From a virus, in the IMG/VR virus record IMGVR_UViG_3300047281_000098, positions 1 to 64,000 of that record: a stretch of DNA of 64,000 bases. One strand, 5' to 3'. This document shows, piece after piece, positions 44,228-53,501 of the stretch. The translations under genes and the position numbers were made by a program. A model generated the notes under the pieces. The model did not search any database and was not told the DNA's origin. It saw only the letters and a program-made list of their open reading frames with translations. Position 1 is the first letter of the stretch. The number at the start of each line of letters is the position of its first letter.

Positions 44228-44906
44228 TCCAGTAAAATATGAATGTGAATTTTGTAAGAGAGAATTCGCAAAGGAAGCCACGGTATTCAAACATATATGC
44301 CAATACAAACATCGTTGGGTTGAACGCGACAAGAAGGGCAATCGTATTGGATTTCAAGCTTGGCTACAATTCTATACTCGCAACAGCACAAGTAAAAAGA
44401 ATAGGACCGTTGAAGAATTTATCAAAAGTCCGTACTACAACGCATTTGTAAAATTTGGCAATTACTGTGCGGAAATTAATGCGATAAGCGTCAGTAGATT
44501 CATTGATTGGTTACTGAAAGAACAGATAAAAATTGACACCTGGTGTCAAGACAGTGTTTATACAAAGTTTCTGATTGCTTATACCAGAATCGAAGATCCA
44601 ATGGACGCGATTGTTCGCAGCATTGAAACAACTATTAAATTAGCTGAAACAGAATCAATTCAATCACATGATTGTCTACGATATGGAAATGTAAATCGAA
44701 TTTGTTATGCCATTACCGCAGGGAAGATAAGTCCATGGTTGTTGTATCAAAGCGACAGCGGAACAACATTTCTGTCTAATCTAACTTCTGATAATGTTTC
44801 AATGATTCTTGATTATATCAACCCAGAGCAATGGGCTATTAAGTTCAAAAGATACCCAGAAATTGCTGCTGAAGTCAAAGCATTGTTACGAGCAGGTGGC
44901 TATTGA
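44205..44906 (+). CDS. C2H2-type zinc-finger hypothetical protein
   Basis: YECEFCKREF....FKHIC; start uncertain (44187 or 44205). Confidence 0.75.
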   Translation: MIKTAETNPVKYECEFCKREFAKEATVFKHICQYKHRWVERDKKGNRIGFQAWLQFYTRNSTSKKNRTVEEFIKSPYYNAFVKFGNYCAEINAISVSRFIDWLLKEQIKIDTWCQDSVYTKFLIAYTRIEDPMDAIVRSIETTIKLAETESIQSHDCLRYGNVNRICYAITAGKISPWLLYQSDSGTTFLSNLTSDNVSMILDYINPEQWAIKFKRYPEIAAEVKALLRAGGY

Positions 44907-44931
44907 CATTTAATCCATAATCTGTTATAAT
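44903..44931 (+). promoter_or_regulatory. early promoter heading the LRW array (leaderless)
   Basis: TTGACA-17 nt-TATAAT, ATG 6 nt downstream. Confidence 0.87.
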
Positions 44932-44937
44932 ACAGAT

Positions 44938-45273
44938 ATGAAGACATTATACGACCTTGAAAGTACGGGCTTACATAGTTTTAAGCGAGGTGAACTAACA
45001 TTGTTCACTGCTTATAGGCAGTCTGGCAAAAGTATGCTTAATCAATTGTACGGGACAATTATGACAAAAGGAAACTTTGAGATAACAGATCAGGCCCCAG
45101 TAGATGGAGAGACTTGGTATACTGTTGCGTGTGTCAGTGTCGTATGCGAATGGATGCGTGAGCAACCCAAAGAATTGTGGCACGAACACATTGACCTTAG
45201 GTGGATTCATTATTCAAACAAGTTTGACATACATGAAAAACTCTATACCGTGTTAGCACTGCGATGGAGCTAG
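44938..45273 (+). CDS. LRW-family protein with P-loop-like N-terminal fragment
   Basis: FKRGELTLFTAYRQSGKS ... LALRWS. Confidence 0.8.
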   Translation: MKTLYDLESTGLHSFKRGELTLFTAYRQSGKSMLNQLYGTIMTKGNFEITDQAPVDGETWYTVACVSVVCEWMREQPKELWHEHIDLRWIHYSNKFDIHEKLYTVLALRWS

Positions 45274-45500
45274 AACTAAGTGAAGGTGGAATACACGGTG
45301 CCAGGTATTATATAGTCAGACCCTGGCCATGGGACTCGCACATCACCTGGCTCACAATGGAAGCATGGGCTATTGGAACATTCGGACCAGACGGTGGCTC
45401 TATTTGGAATAATCTTAACTCACGCTGGTATATGAATAATAGCAAATTCTGGTTTCGCACTGAAGCGGATCGTACTTTTTTTATATTAAGATGGCAATGA
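45264..45500 (+). CDS. LRW-family protein
   Basis: ends FRTEADRTFFILRWQ. Confidence 0.8.
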   Translation: MELELSEGGIHGARYYIVRPWPWDSHITWLTMEAWAIGTFGPDGGSIWNNLNSRWYMNNSKFWFRTEADRTFFILRWQ

Positions 45501-45697
45501 GAATTCAAAAAGTGTCCAGCAGTGACAACATACATGCTCCTGGCGAATATATGTATAAAATTCATGACCACTGTAAAGATAGCGACACCCTGAGGGGGTG
45601 GAGAGACGAAATCAAGTTGGATTGTCTCATTTACTCCAATGTTGCTTATTTCAATACCGAAACAGATGCTATGTTTTTCATACTGAGATGGCAATGA
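45497..45697 (+). CDS. LRW-family protein
   Basis: ends FNTETDAMFFILRWQ. Confidence 0.8.
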   Translation: MRIQKVSSSDNIHAPGEYMYKIHDHCKDSDTLRGWRDEIKLDCLIYSNVAYFNTETDAMFFILRWQ

Positions 45698-45858
45698 CTA
45701 CCAATTACAGTTGGCAGTACAATGGTGCTGCCCCGTTCATAGATATCATGCAATGGTGCGTTGATACTTTTGAAAATGCTAACTGGTCTGCCAACTGGGA
45801 AACTTTTAGTTTCAATAATGAAAAAGATTATGTTTGGTTTGTATTGAGGTGGCAATGA
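45694..45858 (+). CDS. LRW-family protein
   Basis: WCVDTF...FNNEKDYVWFVLRWQ. Confidence 0.8.
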   Translation: MTTNYSWQYNGAAPFIDIMQWCVDTFENANWSANWETFSFNNEKDYVWFVLRWQ

Positions 45859-46097
45859 GAAAACTAATTCCAAATAATATAACTGTTACTGAACAGATTG
45901 CGATCCATCGTCAGTTTTTTAATATGGTTGGAAAATGGCGTCGTAGTCAGCAGCCTGTTTTAAGAAAGGATGAATACTTGCAGTGTTTGGAAGAGGACAG
46001 CGGTGTTCGGTGCCAATATAGTAGCGGTGGTCAGTTGACAGGATTCGAAGTTATTGATGAAAAGACTTATACCTGGTTTGTGTTGAAATGGACATGA
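45855..46097 (+). CDS. LRW-family protein
   Basis: ends DEKTYTWFVLKWT. Confidence 0.8.
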   Translation: MRKLIPNNITVTEQIAIHRQFFNMVGKWRRSQQPVLRKDEYLQCLEEDSGVRCQYSSGGQLTGFEVIDEKTYTWFVLKWT

Positions 46098-46330
46098 ACG
46101 ATACTACAAGTTGGATTACCTTTGGTAAAGACCATTATCATTTAAACAGGGTAATGGAGCAGTGGTGTCACGAACATATCGGGCAAGGTGGATGGGCACA
46201 CGAAACACCAAAGGCTTGGGGATGTATGATGGGCGATAAGATTTGGGTAATGCATAGTATGTTTGGTAACACAACTTTTTGCTTTAAAGAAGAAAAAGAC
46301 TTTATGTGGTTTAAGTTGAGGTGGGCATGA
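46094..46330 (+). CDS. LRW-family protein
   Basis: WCHEHIG...FKEEKDFMWFKLRWA. Confidence 0.8.
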   Translation: MNDTTSWITFGKDHYHLNRVMEQWCHEHIGQGGWAHETPKAWGCMMGDKIWVMHSMFGNTTFCFKEEKDFMWFKLRWA

Positions 46331-46554
46331 GTTTTATAACAGTTTCGCGTAATTTGAACGCTGATGAGTTAAGAGATTGGTTAGTCACCAATGTTGGAAA
46401 AGAGATCGGCAAGGGAGCTTATGCTAGAAAATGTGGCGACGGATGGGACTTGGATACGACCATTGGTTACAGGGAAATTCCCGCTGTCTTAAAATGGGGC
46501 ATAACCATTGATGACGAAGCATTAGCAGTATTTTTTAAATTGAGGTGGGCATGA
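46327..46554 (+). CDS. LRW-family protein
   Basis: WLVTNVG...DDEALAVFFKLRWA. Confidence 0.8.
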   Translation: MSFITVSRNLNADELRDWLVTNVGKEIGKGAYARKCGDGWDLDTTIGYREIPAVLKWGITIDDEALAVFFKLRWA

Positions 46555-46865
46555 ATAATAAAACAATTGAAGATTTTGTAATCCGTTACGGTGCCAAAGT
46601 AAATTACGAACAAAGACGCGACTATAATACTTATAATACTATGGGTAGGGCAATGGATTACTATTCATTGGATTACTATGGCAATGGTAACAGCATAGTA
46701 GGCATTGAACTACCTTTAAAGGCATTTGAGCACTTAGTCAACTCGGATAATCAAGCTGATGTAGACTATCAAGCTGGTAAGGAAGAGGCTCGCATTCGTG
46801 CTCGGTATCCATCAGTAGCAGAAGCGTATGCTCAATATAAAATGTTACTTGAACTATGCAGATAA
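46551..46865 (+). CDS. hypothetical protein (non-LRW array member)
   Basis: ends YPSVAEAYAQYKMLLELCR. Confidence 0.78.
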   Translation: MNNKTIEDFVIRYGAKVNYEQRRDYNTYNTMGRAMDYYSLDYYGNGNSIVGIELPLKAFEHLVNSDNQADVDYQAGKEEARIRARYPSVAEAYAQYKMLLELCR

Positions 46866-47251
46866 TTGAATATATTAAAGACAAGTATCTAACTTGGCGT
46901 ACTGGCCAAGATAAGCAAACACGCGATTGGAATAAGTGGTTGTATGAAACTGTTCTATTTCGTGCTGACACGATTGAAAATATGTTTGTGAACTTTAAAT
47001 ACATACTACCAGTGTCCGTAGAGATATTTGATCTTGAAGAACCGTTTGGATGGGCACTGGGCGATGACATTCGACAGTATATGTATCCTAACCGAGCATT
47101 AGGTGACTGTGCGGTTCATTACTTTGCGCGTGGGTTTCGCCATCAATGGGATGGTCGCTTTCACCTTAATGAAATTAGCGGTGGTGATCAAGTGTTTATA
47201 GCAACTAACAACAGCAAGGATGCTATGATGATAGCATTGAAGTATTCATGA
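46856..47251 (+). CDS. LRW-related protein
   Basis: ends KDAMMIALKYS. Confidence 0.78.
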   Translation: MQIIEYIKDKYLTWRTGQDKQTRDWNKWLYETVLFRADTIENMFVNFKYILPVSVEIFDLEEPFGWALGDDIRQYMYPNRALGDCAVHYFARGFRHQWDGRFHLNEISGGDQVFIATNNSKDAMMIALKYS

Positions 47252-47580
47252 ACGATTTACAAATAGAAATACACAAGCGCACTATGAAGCTGCTATCTAC
47301 TGTAATGGCACAATCTATTATAGGGGTGCAACCTATGCCAAATACTGGTATCTTCAATGTAAGGTTTAGTAAATCTAAATATAAATTCAACCGTGCTAAA
47401 TGGTATGTAGCAGTGTATAACTACAACTATTATTACGAAGTAGTTGAATGGTGTGCTGAACAGTTCGGCCCACATCCCGAGCAACCAGATGCTTGGAGTC
47501 GTTGGGTACACAAATACGAAGATACGATTCACTTCCGTGATGAAAAAGATTATATTTGGTTTACATTGAGGTGGTCATGA
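47248..47580 (+). CDS. LRW-family protein with major-capsid-like GVQPM fragment
   Basis: MAQSIIGVQPMPNTGIF ... WCAEQFG ... FRDEKDYIWFTLRWS. Confidence 0.82.
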   Translation: MNDLQIEIHKRTMKLLSTVMAQSIIGVQPMPNTGIFNVRFSKSKYKFNRAKWYVAVYNYNYYYEVVEWCAEQFGPHPEQPDAWSRWVHKYEDTIHFRDEKDYIWFTLRWS

Positions 47581-47765
47581 AATTACTGGAAGACTACTCA
47601 GTATCATTGAGCGCAGACAGATGGATCAAAATAAAAGAACAATTAACAAAAGTTGAATCTAATTCATTGGTGTCTATTACTTGGACAGGTCCGTTTGAAA
47701 GAACCAGAATATTACGATTTAAATCTGAGAATGATGCATTGATATTTGTATTGAGGTGGAGCTAA
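47577..47765 (+). CDS. LRW-family protein
   Basis: ends FKSENDALIFVLRWS. Confidence 0.8.
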   Translation: MKLLEDYSVSLSADRWIKIKEQLTKVESNSLVSITWTGPFERTRILRFKSENDALIFVLRWS

Positions 47766-48016
47766 TGATTACATATAAAGTACTGTGGACCGAGTTACCA
47801 CATATTAAAGTACCGGTATTACACACGGTAATGTATGCTCACAGTACAGATGGAGTAGACGCAAAATATCAACGAAGTTATAAGGATCATTTAGTAGATG
47901 AGTGGTTAAAAGCAAACTGTCGGGCGCCTTACTATCACTCTACCTATCATACAGAAAAGTTTATACAATTTGAAGATGATGAAGATGCTATGTGGTTTTC
48001 TTTGAGGTGGTCATGA
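47765..48016 (+). CDS. LRW-family protein
   Basis: ends FEDDEDAMWFSLRWS. Confidence 0.8.
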   Translation: MITYKVLWTELPHIKVPVLHTVMYAHSTDGVDAKYQRSYKDHLVDEWLKANCRAPYYHSTYHTEKFIQFEDDEDAMWFSLRWS

Positions 48017-48273
48017 TATATAACGAAATAGAACAAGACATTATAAACAGAGCAGGCAAGGAACTATCCAGTGAAATTGACTTCCATGTACTTGCTGATT
48101 TATACTCACAAGACGGCTGGACTGAAGTTAATTTGCCGAGACAGCCCAGAGAAACAGTAGTTGAGATTCTATCCTGGTGTGCGAGTCATAATATTAAGTG
48201 CTATGGCAGAGGGCAACGATGGGTGTTTGAGAAGAAGCAAGACGCCTTGTTCTTTAGTTTGAGGTGGGCATGA
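48013..48273 (+). CDS. LRW-family protein with major-capsid-like helix
   Basis: EIEQDII...KELSSEIDFHVLADL ... FEKKQDALFFSLRWA. Confidence 0.82.
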   Translation: MIYNEIEQDIINRAGKELSSEIDFHVLADLYSQDGWTEVNLPRQPRETVVEILSWCASHNIKCYGRGQRWVFEKKQDALFFSLRWA

Positions 48274-48449
48274 TTGTTACATTACCATATGATCCAGCAT
48301 GGAAAGCATTAGAATGGGCTAAAGACCATTGTCCTGATTATGTTACTAATGAAGTACACCCCCACAAAGCATGGATTCGCCCGATTCAGATTGACTACTT
48401 CTTTTCGTCCGAGCGAGATGCTGTATTTTTTAGTTTGAGGTGGGTATGA
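48270..48449 (+). CDS. LRW-family protein
   Basis: ends FSSERDAVFFSLRWV. Confidence 0.8.
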   Translation: MIVTLPYDPAWKALEWAKDHCPDYVTNEVHPHKAWIRPIQIDYFFSSERDAVFFSLRWV

Positions 48450-48691
48450 AATACTTTAGCAGTAGCGGAGGCAACAATAAACCATACTTTGCCCATCGTA
48501 TTAAATTACCCAAAGTGGTTAGTGAAGCATATGACTGGTGCTTAGAGTACCCAGATCAAGATAGACCCTTTAGAAGATTCCATGTAGAATGGGATCATTA
48601 TCCAGAGGGAAAATACGGGCATAAAGGTTATGAAATTATTCAATTTGAGTGGGAAGAAGCCGCCATTATGTTTACATTGAGGTGGTTATGA
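48446..48691 (+). CDS. LRW-family protein
   Basis: ends FEWEEAAIMFTLRWL. Confidence 0.8.
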   Translation: MKYFSSSGGNNKPYFAHRIKLPKVVSEAYDWCLEYPDQDRPFRRFHVEWDHYPEGKYGHKGYEIIQFEWEEAAIMFTLRWL

Positions 48692-48957
48692 GAGTAGAGT
48701 TTAGACAAGGTGTGCCTGACGGATGTGCCCGGTGGCTACGTGAGAATGTTGGACTGGGTAATATTGAGGAAGACAGCAACAACAAGAGAACACGGCAGGG
48801 GATGATTGACATGCCTGAGTATGCTTGGTTCTATGAGCGGGTAGCAATTATACCCGACGATGCCTTGAGTCTGCTTTACGAGTCCATTCATTATGTTCCT
48901 ACTATCACAGTTAAAGATCCCGAGTTGGCTACATTTTTTAGTTTGAGGTGGTTATAA
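48688..48957 (+). CDS. LRW-family protein
   Basis: ends KDPELATFFSLRWL. Confidence 0.8.
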   Translation: MRVEFRQGVPDGCARWLRENVGLGNIEEDSNNKRTRQGMIDMPEYAWFYERVAIIPDDALSLLYESIHYVPTITVKDPELATFFSLRWL

Positions 48958-49172
48958 TGGTAGACTGGCTTAATGACAGCTCTGACGAAGTTTATTGCGC
49001 TGATTCAGAAGCGTTTGAAAACTTTTTTCATGACTTCTGCCTAAATGGAAAAGCCAAAGGAGCAGAATGGGGTCCTGACTATTGGGAACAACATGGCATT
49101 AAGGTTGTGAACAGTAGAGTAGAATATGATACCCCTGCACATCGCACTATGTTTTTATTGAGGTGGTTATGA
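48957..49172 (+). CDS. LRW-family protein
   Basis: ends RTMFLLRWL. Confidence 0.8.
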   Translation: MVDWLNDSSDEVYCADSEAFENFFHDFCLNGKAKGAEWGPDYWEQHGIKVVNSRVEYDTPAHRTMFLLRWL

Positions 49173-49432
49173 AGAAACCTAAACCAAAGAAGCCAAAAGC
49201 TAAAATACCCAAAGGTGCATTGATAGTTGACTACGGCTTGTATCGTGTAATCCTACCTTATAAACACCCGATTGACTTGTATAATAACAAAGAATTAGAT
49301 ATAATATGTGAATGGTGCGATAGAACATTTCCAAAAGATGATTGGAGATGTAGCAGAAGTAGCTGGCCAGGTCATGTCTACTTTTTAAAAGAAAGCTATC
49401 TGACAATGTTTTTATTGATGTGGGCAAAATAA
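49169..49432 (+). CDS. LRW-family protein
   Basis: WCDRTF...TMFLLMWAK. Confidence 0.78.
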   Translation: MKKPKPKKPKAKIPKGALIVDYGLYRVILPYKHPIDLYNNKELDIICEWCDRTFPKDDWRCSRSSWPGHVYFLKESYLTMFLLMWAK

Positions 49433-49433
49433 T

Positions 49434-49874
49434 ATGGTTCAGCTAACTAGACCTGTACCGCCAAAACCAAGCATGATACCGTGGCCATATAAGTTGCCTC
49501 GCAATAAATTAGAAAGACAAGAAGATATGGCTAAATGGGAAATACATAAACGAGCAGGCAATCTAGTAGAAGCTGCTTGGTGGCACTGGATGCCAGGGGT
49601 AACAATTAATGTTAAATGGCCTGTTGGTTTAGTATTTGTGCTTGATGAAAAAGATCGTCGGTGGGATTGGACCATGGGAACAACCAAGCAATCATTTGAC
49701 TCGGCGGACCCTAACGACCATTATAGACCTTGGCTTGAAAAGAATGTTGGCAAGCAGGGATGGGATTGGCAATGGGGACTTAGAGATAACAACGCAGCAG
49801 AGAATAGACTTACTATTAAAGTTAGAACTAAACATGCCAAGTGGGCAACAGTCGCCTCACTTCTGTGGGGATAA
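49434..49874 (+). CDS. LRW-related protein
   Basis: WLEKNVGKQGWDW...ASLLWG. Confidence 0.78.
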   Translation: MVQLTRPVPPKPSMIPWPYKLPRNKLERQEDMAKWEIHKRAGNLVEAAWWHWMPGVTINVKWPVGLVFVLDEKDRRWDWTMGTTKQSFDSADPNDHYRPWLEKNVGKQGWDWQWGLRDNNAAENRLTIKVRTKHAKWATVASLLWG

Positions 49875-49877
49875 GTA

Positions 49878-50099
49878 ATGGATTTTGACTTCAACAAGGA
49901 AAAGCGATTTATCCTTGTCCCTGCTAATCTTGAGTTTTCAAAACTCATGGTCATACTAACTGATATGGACTATTGGAACACACATTACGAAGCACTCAAA
50001 GACTGGTGCGATCTACAACTAGGAACTAATCAAGTTGGGATGACGGTTGAGTTCGACAGTGAGCAGGACCTGATGTTGTTTATATTAAGATGGAGCTAG
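49878..50099 (+). CDS. LRW-family protein
   Basis: ends FDSEQDLMLFILRWS. Confidence 0.8.
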   Translation: MDFDFNKEKRFILVPANLEFSKLMVILTDMDYWNTHYEALKDWCDLQLGTNQVGMTVEFDSEQDLMLFILRWS

Positions 50100-50100
50100 A

Positions 50101-50367
50101 GTGAAACACATATTCAGAAATTTAATTCGCAAAGAGAAATGGACTCTTGTGGAAATTAAGCCGACCAAGGACACAATGTGGTCTTCTGGTGGGGAAGATT
50201 TAAATCGGCAAGACTATATTAAAATGCGGAATTGGTGCGAACAAACTTTTCACAAAGAAGTATTCGCCACTTCATTACAATCAGTACACGGAGTTAGTCC
50301 TGGATTGAAACGATTCATATTCAACAATCCCGCAGATGCCACGATGTTCAGATTGCGTTGGGAATGA
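50101..50367 (+). CDS. LRW-family protein
   Basis: WCEQTF...FNNPADATMFRLRWE. Confidence 0.8.
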   Translation: MKHIFRNLIRKEKWTLVEIKPTKDTMWSSGGEDLNRQDYIKMRNWCEQTFHKEVFATSLQSVHGVSPGLKRFIFNNPADATMFRLRWE

Positions 50368-50597
50368 CTAAGACCTCTGTTACAGTTTACGGTGCGTATG
50401 CTCCAATGCTAAAATGGCTAAGTGACAACATAGGCGCGGAGCTTCACAGTATGCCAATTGTTTTTTGGTACGGAAAAGGTTGGTTCATGAAACGCACATC
50501 TGATATTAGAGAAGAAAGAGTTGGACTCAGGGCTGGCTGGTCAGTTGATTTTGATGATGATCAGAATGCGACATGGTTCGCATTAATATGGGGATAA
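50364..50597 (+). CDS. LRW-family protein
   Basis: WLSDNIG...FDDDQNATWFALIWG. Confidence 0.8.
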   Translation: MTKTSVTVYGAYAPMLKWLSDNIGAELHSMPIVFWYGKGWFMKRTSDIREERVGLRAGWSVDFDDDQNATWFALIWG

Positions 50598-50598
50598 T

Positions 50599-50874
50599 AT
50601 GGCAATTTTAAATACACACGCACATGGATACTTTAGAGCAGTTGAATACGAGACAATAGAAGTAATAGACATGCCTCGCACCTACGGCGCCAAGAAAGTA
50701 TACACGTATGATTGTAGGGCAAAGTCAGAAGATCCAAGCATTATTGTAAAATGGTGCAGAAGAAACTTTGGGCAGCGAGGTGATGGTTGGGACTTTACTT
50801 TTCACTCAGACCGTGTTACAATAGAGATTACAAAAGACGAGTTTAAGACAATGTACGAAATGTGGAAACTATAA
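50599..50874 (+). CDS. LRW-related protein
   Basis: WCRRNFGQRGDGW...MYEMWKL. Confidence 0.78.
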   Translation: MAILNTHAHGYFRAVEYETIEVIDMPRTYGAKKVYTYDCRAKSEDPSIIVKWCRRNFGQRGDGWDFTFHSDRVTIEITKDEFKTMYEMWKL

Positions 50875-51419
50875 TGGCAAATAATGTAATGATAGATTTG
50901 GAAACGCTGGACACAAGTCCATTCTGCGTTATCCTCACGATTGGAGCAGTAGTATTCGACCCTAAGGGCAACGGTATCGTTGACAAGATTGATCTGCGAC
51001 CTTCAATTGAAGAACAACTTGATATGGGCAGAGTTATCAACGATGAAACTGTTAAGTGGTGGGGCAATCAAAGTGAGGCGGCGCAACATGAAGCACTAGG
51101 TGATCATGACCGAATTCCCTTCAAGGAAGCAATGGAGAAACTTCATAAATTCTGTTGGAACAAAGGTAACCCCTGGAGTCACGGCGCAGCGTTTGACATT
51201 GTAGCAGTGGAAACATCTTGGGCCAGCTTTAAGATGCAACCACCATGGGACTTTTACAAAGTACGAGACACACGAACATTGTTTGATGTTACTGGAGTGA
51301 ATCTTAAAGACGGTGGTTATGTGACAACTCACAAGGCTTCCGAAGATGCGGCACGTCAGGCATTCATTGTACAGAAGGCGTATAAGATTCTCATTGCCGC
51401 CGGAGTAACCCCTCCGTGA
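50874..51419 (+). CDS. DEDDh 3'-5' exonuclease (DexA-like)
   Basis: MIDLETL, SHGAAFD, RDTRT, HKASEDA; start at 50874. Confidence 0.9.
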   Translation: MANNVMIDLETLDTSPFCVILTIGAVVFDPKGNGIVDKIDLRPSIEEQLDMGRVINDETVKWWGNQSEAAQHEALGDHDRIPFKEAMEKLHKFCWNKGNPWSHGAAFDIVAVETSWASFKMQPPWDFYKVRDTRTLFDVTGVNLKDGGYVTTHKASEDAARQAFIVQKAYKILIAAGVTPP

Positions 51420-51423
51420 AATT

Positions 51424-51678
51424 ATGAAGATTAATCCTAAACTTAAACCAGACGAGTTAGCTCTTTTATCAGTAGATTCTGCTAGGAGATATTTTCTATT
51501 AAACGTTAATACCACTAAACTAGCACCGGACGAAGATTCTATACAGCATGAGTTTGCACTGTGGTTAGAAACAGAATACTCCTGTAAAATGTGGCGCCCG
51601 TATAAAGGAGCAACAAGACGGTTGAAATTTAATGATATGGCTAAATTAGTTTGGTTTAAACTCAAATATGAAATTTAA
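51424..51678 (+). CDS. LRW-related protein
   Basis: ends FNDMAKLVWFKLKYEI. Confidence 0.7.
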   Translation: MKINPKLKPDELALLSVDSARRYFLLNVNTTKLAPDEDSIQHEFALWLETEYSCKMWRPYKGATRRLKFNDMAKLVWFKLKYEI

Positions 51679-52727: not shown

Positions 52728-53501
52728 ATGTATGCAACCTCAGTTTTCTCCTATATCCCTCGGCAAATTGTCGTTGTCTTATCCGGCAACTCGGTAAGGA
52801 AATATATGCCCGTTTATGCTAAACCACTCACATTACACAAAGGTGTCGACAACCAGCTGCAGTTTCAGTTCCTTAATCAAGAGCAGAAACCTGTTAATAT
52901 CACTGGTGCGGAGATCACATGCCGTATTTTAAACTATCAAGGTAATACTGTGCTTCTTCAGAAAGCACTGACCCTACAATTAGCAGCCACAGGTATTGCT
53001 GCTCTTCAACTAAACGCAGCAGACATTGAGGGTATTGATCCACAAAAATGCTATTACACATTAGAAATTCCAGTTGGTAGTTTCAATTACCCAGTATTCG
53101 TGGATCAGAACGCAGGTGGTCGCGGTGATCTAAACATCGTTAATTCTATTCTACCAAGCTTTGTGCCGTCACAAAGTGTGTCTATTCCTACTGGGCAATT
53201 GTTCCCGAATAACAATTCAAGCGCAAATGCCAATTCAAACGCACTAACATATTTTACCAGTGTTTGGTCAACTGATGATAATCCAATTTCAACTATTCAA
53301 GCAGAATACACTGGGTTTTATGGTAACGTTCAGATTCAAGGTTCCACAATAGTAGACGGTGATTGGTATAACATTGGAAACACGTATGTCTATTCAAACG
53401 TATCCGATACCATTGGATATTCCTTTACTGGATATCATCCATACATCCAAGTACAATTCATCAGTAATATTGGTGATGTTACTAACATTTTAAGAAGATA
53501 G
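52728..53501 (+). CDS. putative virion structural protein
   Basis: late boxes upstream; beta-rich; baseplate-like QFLNQEQKPVNITG segment. Confidence 0.65.
   Translation: MYATSVFSYIPRQIVVVLSGNSVRKYMPVYAKPLTLHKGVDNQLQFQFLNQEQKPVNITGAEITCRILNYQGNTVLLQKALTLQLAATGIAALQLNAADIEGIDPQKCYYTLEIPVGSFNYPVFVDQNAGGRGDLNIVNSILPSFVPSQSVSIPTGQLFPNNNSSANANSNALTYFTSVWSTDDNPISTIQAEYTGFYGNVQIQGSTIVDGDWYNIGNTYVYSNVSDTIGYSFTGYHPYIQVQFISNIGDVTNILRR

What the first reader, a model, noticed from the sequence alone, without database searches (positions are those of the whole stretch)
47248..47367. Major-capsid Gol-peptide-like fragment fused to an LRW module: possible defence decoy
Seen: N-terminus RTMKLLSTVMAQSIIGVQPMPNTGIFNVRF, followed by an ordinary LRW domain. 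Established (from memory): T4-type major capsid proteins contain RRAIPNLIAFDICGVQPMNSPTGQVF, and this stretch of T4 gp23 is the Gol peptide that binds EF-Tu and activates the Lit protease. Inference: an early-expressed mimic of a capsid epitope could saturate or poison capsid-sensing defences before real capsid is made, or bind EF-Tu itself.
Basis: partly seen in the sequence, partly recalled or inferred. Interest (0 to 1): 0.88.

Follow-up and report, generated by a model that had tools for sequence, protein, structure and literature searches.

The report
Capsid look-alike peptide on phage mini-protein
A small, probably early gene of an uncultured giant phage starts with a worn copy of the most conserved stretch of the phage capsid protein, the stretch that in phage T4 binds host factor EF-Tu and sets off a suicide defence. 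It is joined to a new small domain; hundreds of related phages keep this fusion, so it looks like a deliberate capsid look-alike, but its job is untested.

Summary
ORF 47248-47580 (+, 110 aa) carries the reported N-terminus.

**What is shown**
- **More than chance.** A profile built only from real capsid proteins of this phage clade picks this ORF alone among 1461 ORFs of the 105-kb record (E 5e-4). A profile built only from the heads of relatives gives E 5e-10.
- **Eroded copy.** The window's copy alone gets no Pfam Gp23 hit, but 23 of 30 relatives do (best E 6e-13). These matches align to T4 gp23 residues 93-131.
- **Recurrent.** There are more than 255 homologous protein clusters and 94 IMG/VR loci.
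- **A second carrier.** An unrelated LRW-type carrier family keeps the same head.
- **Selection.** In canonical relatives the head has dN/dS of about 0.1-0.2.
- **Fold.** The head is predicted flexible. The 67-aa carrier folds confidently and has no known relative.
- **Expression class.** A perfect sigma-70 promoter heads the 24-gene array, as it does before the replication genes, which points to early expression.
- **Other heads on the same carrier.** In other phages this carrier bears pieces resembling the ribonucleotide reductase catalytic loop, a helicase/terminase P-loop and a C-terminal capsid strand.

**What is not shown**

This scan has already reported the same fusion in other genomes.

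The parts
44903..44931 (+). Perfect sigma-70 consensus promoter (12 of 12, 17-nt spacer, extended -10 TG) heading the small-gene array
   Evidence: There are 19 such perfect promoters on the + strand of the 105-kb record and none on the - strand. They precede the SSB and UvsX genes and the small-gene arrays, but not the terminase/portal block.
44938..51678 (+). Array of about 24 co-directional small ORFs with overlapping stop/start codons, most ending in F-x-LRW-x-stop
   Evidence: The LRW codons TTGAGGTGG double as the ribosome-binding site of the next ORF (read directly at 47567-47580).
47248..47580 (+). The gene: a 110-aa two-part protein (head plus carrier), with its stop codon
   Evidence: Its ATG overlaps the stop of the upstream ORF (ATGA). 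More than 255 homologous clusters.
47248..47376 (+). N-terminal head, residues 1-43: an eroded copy of the major-capsid (Gp23) segment that includes the Gol region. The core AQ-x-I-x-GVQPM ... G-I-F-x-x-R is at residues 21-39.
   Evidence: HMM hits (residues 14-41 against the heads profile, 15-30 against the capsid-only profile). Family alignments. AlphaFold2 gives pLDDT 50-70; residues 24-50 are coil.
47377..47577 (+). Carrier domain, residues 44-110: a compact beta-alpha-beta-beta-alpha fold ending in LRW
   Evidence: pLDDT about 90. 20 invariant columns in 30 sequences. 497 representative proteins at E<=1e-3, all 52-156 aa, with the domain always C-terminal. No PDB, Pfam, PHROG or NCBIfam relative.

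Best explanation
Shown:
- The gene encodes a two-part protein. A flexible N-terminal head is a diverged copy of the most conserved stretch of the T4-type major capsid protein; it corresponds to T4 gp23 residues about 93-131, just after the processed N-terminus, which is the stretch holding the Gol peptide. The head is joined to a compact 67-residue carrier domain of a family with no known relatives.
- The fusion is ancient, widespread in a clade of about 350-kb uncultured T4-related phages, and under purifying selection in its canonical members.
- It lies in an operon driven by the same host-type promoter class as the replication genes.

Inferred:
- The protein is made early and presents a free-standing look-alike of the nascent capsid peptide.
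- That peptide occupies whatever cellular factor recognises this stretch on new capsid protein. Candidates are a short-motif-sensing abortive-infection sensor of the Lit or CapRel kind, or EF-Tu itself as its co-factor. The look-alike would blunt or mistime that recognition.
- The same carrier bears pieces resembling other core proteins in other phages, so the family is best read as a set of displayed core-protein motifs.
- The window's own copy keeps the core motif but has lost flanking conserved residues, so it may be a weakened member.
For: - **Homology.** 23 of 30 family members hit Pfam Gp23 (best E 6.3e-13). The G001 members score 46.4 and 29.5 bits against a cut-off of 24.4. phrog_138 'major head protein' matches with E 5.9e-12.
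- **Reciprocal hits.** The family profile hits the real capsid gene in 5 of 5 related genomes and aligns to T4 gp23 93-131.
- **The window copy itself.** E 5.3e-4 against the capsid-only profile and 4.8e-10 against the heads-only profile, as the sole hit among 1461 ORFs.
- **Recurrence.** 255 clusters, 94 IMG/VR loci, and 24 of the 150 best representatives of the carrier have this head.
- **A second carrier.** An unrelated carrier family of 21 clusters keeps the same head at its very N-terminus; 17 of 21 have Gp23 hits and the core is invariant.
- **Selection.** Head dN/dS is 0.08-0.25 in canonical relatives, with synonymous sites near saturation, the same as in the carrier.
- **No homogenisation with the capsid gene.** Real capsid proteins of the clade are 93-97% identical, while the small proteins are 50-60% identical.
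- **A displayed peptide.** The head is low-confidence and unpacked in two AlphaFold2 models, while the carrier has pLDDT 85-92.
- **Early promoter class.**
- **Literature.** A 29-residue Gol peptide suffices to bind EF-Tu and license Lit, and it is the most conserved part of gp23 (PMC3014915). Lit and CapRel sense capsid protein through short motifs (bioRxiv 10.64898/2026.01.04.697583).
Against: - No functional or binding data of any kind.
- A Gol-like peptide made early would be expected to trigger a Lit-type system rather than block it, unless it is a non-activating variant.
- The window copy misses the Pfam threshold.
- Against its nearest relative (L001) the head shows dN 0.058 against dS 0.042. 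This rests on very few changes, but it is compatible with relaxed selection.
- The nearest cultured relative, Vibrio phage 2.275.O, has the capsid gene but no such small protein, so the family is dispensable.
- No short-motif sensor is known for the reductase-like and P-loop heads on the same carrier, and the similarity of those heads is short (E about 1e-3).
- The host is unknown.
Confidence: 0.4

Rival explanations
1. EF-Tu hijack rather than decoy. The head binds EF-Tu domains II-III, as the T4 Gol peptide does. The carrier brings a second activity, so the protein modulates host or phage translation early in infection, independently of any defence system.
For: The unit conserved in both carrier families spans almost exactly the stretch that aligns to the T4 Gol region. 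The T4 Gol peptide alone binds EF-Tu and inhibits its GTPase, and Gol-EF-Tu contact is proposed to be general among T4-related phages (PMC3014915).
Against: It does not explain why the same carrier bears reductase-like, P-loop and C-terminal capsid heads. No binding test could be run.
Confidence: 0.15
2. In this window the head is a decaying relic. The fusion is functional in canonical relatives, but this copy has lost the flanking conserved residues, and only its carrier domain still matters.
For: No Pfam hit for the window protein. It lacks the conserved proline and basic pair upstream of the core and has a two-residue deletion after GVQPM. Head dN is about equal to dS against L001. Headless members of the carrier family exist. 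The G001 member found in the 51-57 kb array (53192-53461) has only about 22 residues before its carrier domain.
Against: The ten-residue core around GVQPM is identical between the window and L001, and the downstream G-I-F-x-x-R pattern is kept in the window. Too few substitutions to measure selection.
Confidence: 0.2
3. Capsid-related role. The head copies the N-terminal arm and first strand of the mature capsid protein, so it could dock the small protein onto capsid subunits or procapsids, as an assembly chaperone, an assembly brake or a packaged internal protein.
For: Canonical heads begin about where the mature capsid protein is expected to begin and run about 55 residues. The Pfam match covers profile positions 2-61, and the numbering offset of 65 between mature and full-length T4 chains places the match at residues 28-66 of the mature protein. 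Some members also carry the C-terminal capsid strand motif.
Against: The promoter class is that of replication genes, not of the terminase/portal block. Heads resembling reductase and helicase on the same carrier have no place in a capsid role. In the capsid fold this segment is presumably part of the subunit's own core (my inference, not tested).
Confidence: 0.1
4. Footprint of mobile DNA. The heads are captured flanks of the most conserved motifs of core genes (capsid, helicase or terminase P-loop, reductase catalytic loop). These are the sites that homing endonucleases, introns and inteins typically target. LRW cassettes would have picked them up when moving in and out of such sites.
For: The set of head types matches classic insertion hot-spots (the hot-spot statement is from my general knowledge). 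Heads are mosaics of several motifs in series. The cassette junctions are uniform.
Against: Purifying selection acts at the protein level while synonymous sites are saturated. The core is invariant in two carrier families. No nuclease or splicing motif was seen in the carrier, and no split core gene was seen in G001.
Confidence: 0.1

Closest known systems
Gol region of T4 gp23 (activating cofactor of the e14 Lit protease; binds EF-Tu domains II-III)
   Same: The head is homologous to the same stretch of the capsid protein: the family profile aligns to gp23 residues 93-131. In T4 a 29-residue peptide of this stretch is active on its own (PMC3014915).
   Different: Here the stretch is a separate gene product fused to an unrelated small domain and sits under an early-type promoter. 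EF-Tu binding and protease activation are untested. The window copy has lost several conserved flanking residues.
Pfam PF07068 / phrog_138: T4-type major capsid proteins (gp23, gp24, and the 398-aa capsid protein of this clade)
   Same: Significant profile matches for canonical family members.
   Different: Only profile positions 2-61 of 376 are present, so no HK97 fold can form. The window member is below threshold. Real capsid proteins of the clade are 93-97% identical, while these heads are about 45% identical to them.
Small early phage peptides and mimics that deal with host defences (T4 Stp, Ocr-type mimics, T4 internal proteins)
   Same: Small size, likely early expression, and a proposed action by occupying a host factor (analogy only, from general knowledge).
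   Different: None of these is a fragment of a phage structural protein, and there is no sequence or fold relation.

Membership tests
Pfam PF07068 Gp23 (major capsid protein) | Profile score at or above the gathering cut-off of 24.4 bits | tested here: not met
   The window protein has no hit at E<=1. Relatives do pass: 46.4 and 29.5 bits, and 23 of 30 members.
Pfam PF07068 Gp23 (major capsid protein) | Coverage of the whole capsid fold (376-position profile) | tested here: not met
   Small proteins match only positions 2-61. The real capsid genes of related genomes match positions 1-373.
Gol peptide (functional element of T4 gp23) | Sequence correspondence to the gp23 stretch that holds Gol | tested here: met
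   The family profile aligns to gp23 93-131. The window head is the sole hit of the capsid-only segment profile, E 5.3e-4.
Gol peptide (functional element of T4 gp23) | Binds EF-Tu (domains II-III) | not testable with these tools
Gol peptide (functional element of T4 gp23) | Licenses Lit protease to cleave EF-Tu | not testable with these tools
   Needs an in vivo or in vitro assay. No Lit-like peptidase was found in four phage records, but the control genomes did not ring either.
LRW-ending carrier family (profile A4; unnamed) | C-terminal 67-residue domain with the invariant Trp/Cys/Phe/Gly/Arg pattern ending in LRW | tested here: met
   20 invariant columns are shared. 497 representatives match. 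The fold is confident.

The most novel reading that the evidence does not exclude
The LRW carriers form a phage-encoded library of displayed short motifs copied from the phage's own most conserved proteins: the capsid Gol region, a capsid C-terminal strand, a helicase/terminase P-loop and the ribonucleotide reductase catalytic loop. Made early, they would act as non-activating look-alikes that blind host immune sensors which recognise those motifs. That would be a new anti-defence principle: trigger mimicry.
Probability: 0.2. Interest if true: 0.9.

Novelty: categorically new. Interest (0 to 1): 0.66.

Why it matters
Bacterial immunity is now known to sense conserved phage proteins, the capsid protein above all. 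Lit and CapRel read short capsid motifs, and EF-Tu takes part in both Lit and Avs7 sensing. A conserved, selected, probably early phage gene that carries just that capsid motif on a carrier would be the first candidate for a phage answer by trigger mimicry.

It also offers a natural minimal Gol-like peptide for testing the old proposal that capsid proteins of all T4-type phages contact EF-Tu. Even if the decoy idea is wrong, the family shows that short pieces of core proteins are reused as functional modules, which has not been described.

Tried and rejected
**Searches that found nothing**
- DNA and protein searches of GenBank phages found no relative of the gene.
- Pfam, PHROGs and NCBIfam give nothing for the window protein or its carrier domain.
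- The window protein against PDB sequences gives only a chance hit.
- Foldseek against the PDB has no match at E<=0.001. The exhaustive VIA-align search has a top Z of 5.3 to generic two-layer alpha/beta domains (KH-like, ACT-like), which I take as a common arrangement. BFVD matches only uncharacterised proteins of uncultured phages.
- The window's own capsid gene is not in the 105-kb record. I used the complete relative G001, whose terminase is 79% identical.
- No EF-Tu homologue in four phage records. No Lit-like peptidase either, but that search is uninformative because its control did not ring.
- Two full-text literature searches found no description of capsid-fragment fusions or capsid decoys in phages.

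**Weak or abandoned leads**
- Plain BLAST of all LRW heads against all large ORFs of G000 and G001 gave significant hits only for the capsid heads. The other head types needed profiles and remain weak (E about 1e-3).
- I first read the NLCKEI heads as a variant of the capsid segment. I dropped that when their profile hit the reductase catalytic loop.
- The original Gol papers (PubMed 9501186; JBC 2005) are not held in the library.

Full report
**Setting**

The window is the first 64 kb of a 105-kb IMG/VR record that CheckV rates about 30% complete. It carries T4-type genes: large terminase, gp32-like SSB, UvsX, UvsY and a DnaB-like helicase. Its terminase is 79% identical to that of G001, a complete 364-kb phage genome with terminal repeats. 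The nearest cultured relative by capsid protein is the 349-kb Vibrio phage 2.275.O. This is therefore an uncultured T4-related phage of about 350 kb.

**The observation**

ORF 47248-47580 (+) encodes 110 residues, and the reported peptide is residues 11-40. It lies in a run of about 24 co-directional small ORFs at 44.9-51.7 kb. Most end in F-x-LRW, and their stop and start codons overlap. The LRW codons provide the next gene's ribosome-binding site.

GVQPM occurs once in six frames of the whole record. I tested for chance with two profiles searched against all 1461 open frames of the record:
- A profile of the matching segment from real capsid proteins of the clade hits only this ORF (E 5.3e-4; next best 1.4).
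- A profile of 57 heads from relatives, with the carrier domain excluded, gives E 4.8e-10.

The window protein alone gets no Pfam Gp23 hit.

**Homology to the capsid protein**

- The protein has more than 255 homologous clusters of 60-193 aa, many with a stored Gp23 hit.
- Of 30 aligned members, 23 hit PF07068, with a best E of 6.3e-13.
- Canonical members also hit phrog_138, 'major head protein' (E 5.9e-12).
- The family profile finds the real capsid gene in all five related genomes searched (E 1e-5 to 4e-6).
- It aligns to T4 gp23 residues 93-131, which are residues 28-66 of the mature chain.
- Only positions 2-61 of the 376-position Pfam profile are present.

According to the T4 review PMC3014915, a 29-residue peptide of this region is Gol. 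It binds EF-Tu domains II-III and lets the Lit protease cleave EF-Tu, and it is the most conserved part of gp23. From memory, not checked here, that peptide runs from the double arginine to the arginine after VFAL. That is the same span that is conserved in the heads.

**The fusion is kept on purpose**

- G001 has a real 398-aa capsid gene plus two small head-bearing genes.
- One of these belongs to the window's family. The other joins the head to an unrelated carrier: the two are 22% identical, and only the head and the final tryptophan motif are alike.
- That second family has 21 clusters. Of these, 17 have Gp23 hits, and the head core is invariant at the very N-terminus.
- In canonical members the head has dN/dS of 0.08-0.25 while synonymous sites are near saturation, the same as in the carrier.
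- The heads are not being copied afresh from the capsid gene. Capsid proteins of the clade are 93-97% identical, with six segment variants among 125. The small proteins are 50-60% identical to each other, and their heads are about 45% identical to the capsid segment.

**The window copy is eroded**

- It keeps the core around GVQPM and the downstream G-I-F-x-x-R.
- It lacks the upstream proline and basic pair and has a two-residue deletion.
- Against its nearest DNA relative L001, the head shows dN 0.058 and dS 0.042, from a handful of changes.

**Structure and expression**

- AlphaFold2 gives a confident beta-alpha-beta-beta-alpha carrier domain, with pLDDT about 90.
- The head is a low-confidence helix followed by coil and does not pack on the carrier. 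This holds for both the window protein and the canonical G001 protein.
- The carrier has no relative in the PDB. Its only structural neighbours are uncharacterised proteins of uncultured phages.
- A profile of the carrier finds 497 representative proteins. All are 52-156 aa with the domain at the C-terminus, some are headless, and none is fused to a full-size domain.
- A perfect TTGACA-17-TATAAT promoter with an extended -10 sits at 44903-44931.
- The record has 19 such perfect sites on the + strand and none on the - strand. They stand before the SSB and UvsX genes and the small-gene arrays, but not before the terminase/portal block. By analogy with T4 this marks early or middle genes. No transcript data could be obtained.

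**Other heads on the same carrier**

Among the best 150 representatives:
- 24 have the Gol-like head.
- About 23 have an NLCKEI-type piece. Its profile hits the catalytic loop of the G001 class I ribonucleotide reductase (E 0.004; the enzyme is confirmed by Pfam).
- About 15 have a P-loop piece resembling the Walker A region of the DnaB-like helicase (E 0.002). Its RQTGKS heptad also occurs in the terminase.
- 5 have the C-terminal capsid strand motif (E 0.002).
- Several heads are mosaics of two pieces.

These matches are short and weak, and I treat them as leads. Earlier notes of this scan report a further capsid-helix head at 48013-48105 and a P-loop head at 44938-45045 in this same array. 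They also report the Gol-like fusion in two other genomes.

**Reading**

What is shown is a conserved, selected, probably early gene that displays a capsid-derived peptide on a new carrier. The function is inferred.

I favour a look-alike that occupies whatever recognises this peptide on nascent capsid protein. That would be a short-motif sensor of the Lit or CapRel kind, or EF-Tu itself. The reasons are that the conserved unit coincides with the autonomous Gol peptide, that it is presented as a free flexible arm, and that it is likely made before the capsid protein.

Four points count against this:
- An early Gol-like peptide should trigger rather than block a Lit-type system, unless it is a non-activating variant.
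- No short-motif sensors are known for the other head types.
- The cultured relative lacks the family.
- This window's copy may be decaying.

The rivals are an EF-Tu hijack, a capsid-assembly or capsid-targeting role, a relic in this particular copy, and a footprint of mobile DNA at conserved motifs. The EF-Tu co-fold that might have shifted these odds could not be run.

**Novelty**

Two full-text searches found no description of such fusions, and no curated family covers the protein. I rate the architecture as unlike any described system. The interest is tempered by the lack of functional evidence and by the eroded state of this copy.

Noticed in passing
related proteins P0241-P0386; G001 reductase at L106:648-2972:-: The same carrier domain bears other N-terminal pieces in other phages: an NLCKEI or NPCGEI piece like the ribonucleotide reductase catalytic loop, a P-loop piece like the DnaB-type helicase Walker A region (with the terminase's RQTGKS), and a FYAPYIP piece like a C-terminal capsid strand. 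They are often strung together. Profile E-values are about 1e-3 against 256 large ORFs.
   Followed up: partly
L088:1498-1845:+ (G001, between an epimerase and an aminotransferase gene): A second, unrelated LKW/LRW-ending carrier family (21 clusters) has the Gol-like head at its very N-terminus with an invariant core. It lies outside the LRW arrays, among sugar-modification genes.
   Followed up: partly
window 2861-61592 and the rest of the record to 74917, + strand: There are 19 perfect TTGACA-17-TATAAT promoters on the + strand of the 105-kb record and none on the - strand (about 0.006 expected by chance). They cluster before replication and recombination genes and small-gene arrays and are absent from 13.3-33.2 kb, which holds the terminase and portal-like genes.
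   Followed up: partly
window 44938-45273 and 47992-48273: Two other array genes carry heads that earlier notes of this scan read as a P-loop fragment and a capsid-helix fragment. The first gene's head contains a GKS P-loop, visible. I did not test the second.
   Followed up: no
window 46545-47251: The two ORFs just upstream of the gene (106 and 131 aa) break the LRW pattern: they end in LCR and KYS and have no family hits. The junction before 47248 therefore lacks the GAGGTGG ribosome-binding site that most array junctions have. Translation of the gene may depend on the ATGA overlap.
   Followed up: no
MG592671.1 (Vibrio phage 2.275.O, locus L090): The closest cultured relative by capsid protein (66.6% identity to G001's) has no member of the head-bearing family. 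No cultivable model for this gene is evident in GenBank phages.
   Followed up: partly
phrog_12830: A 128-position PHROG annotated 'major head protein' matches the heads at its last 30 positions. It may itself be a family of short capsid-fragment proteins.
   Followed up: no
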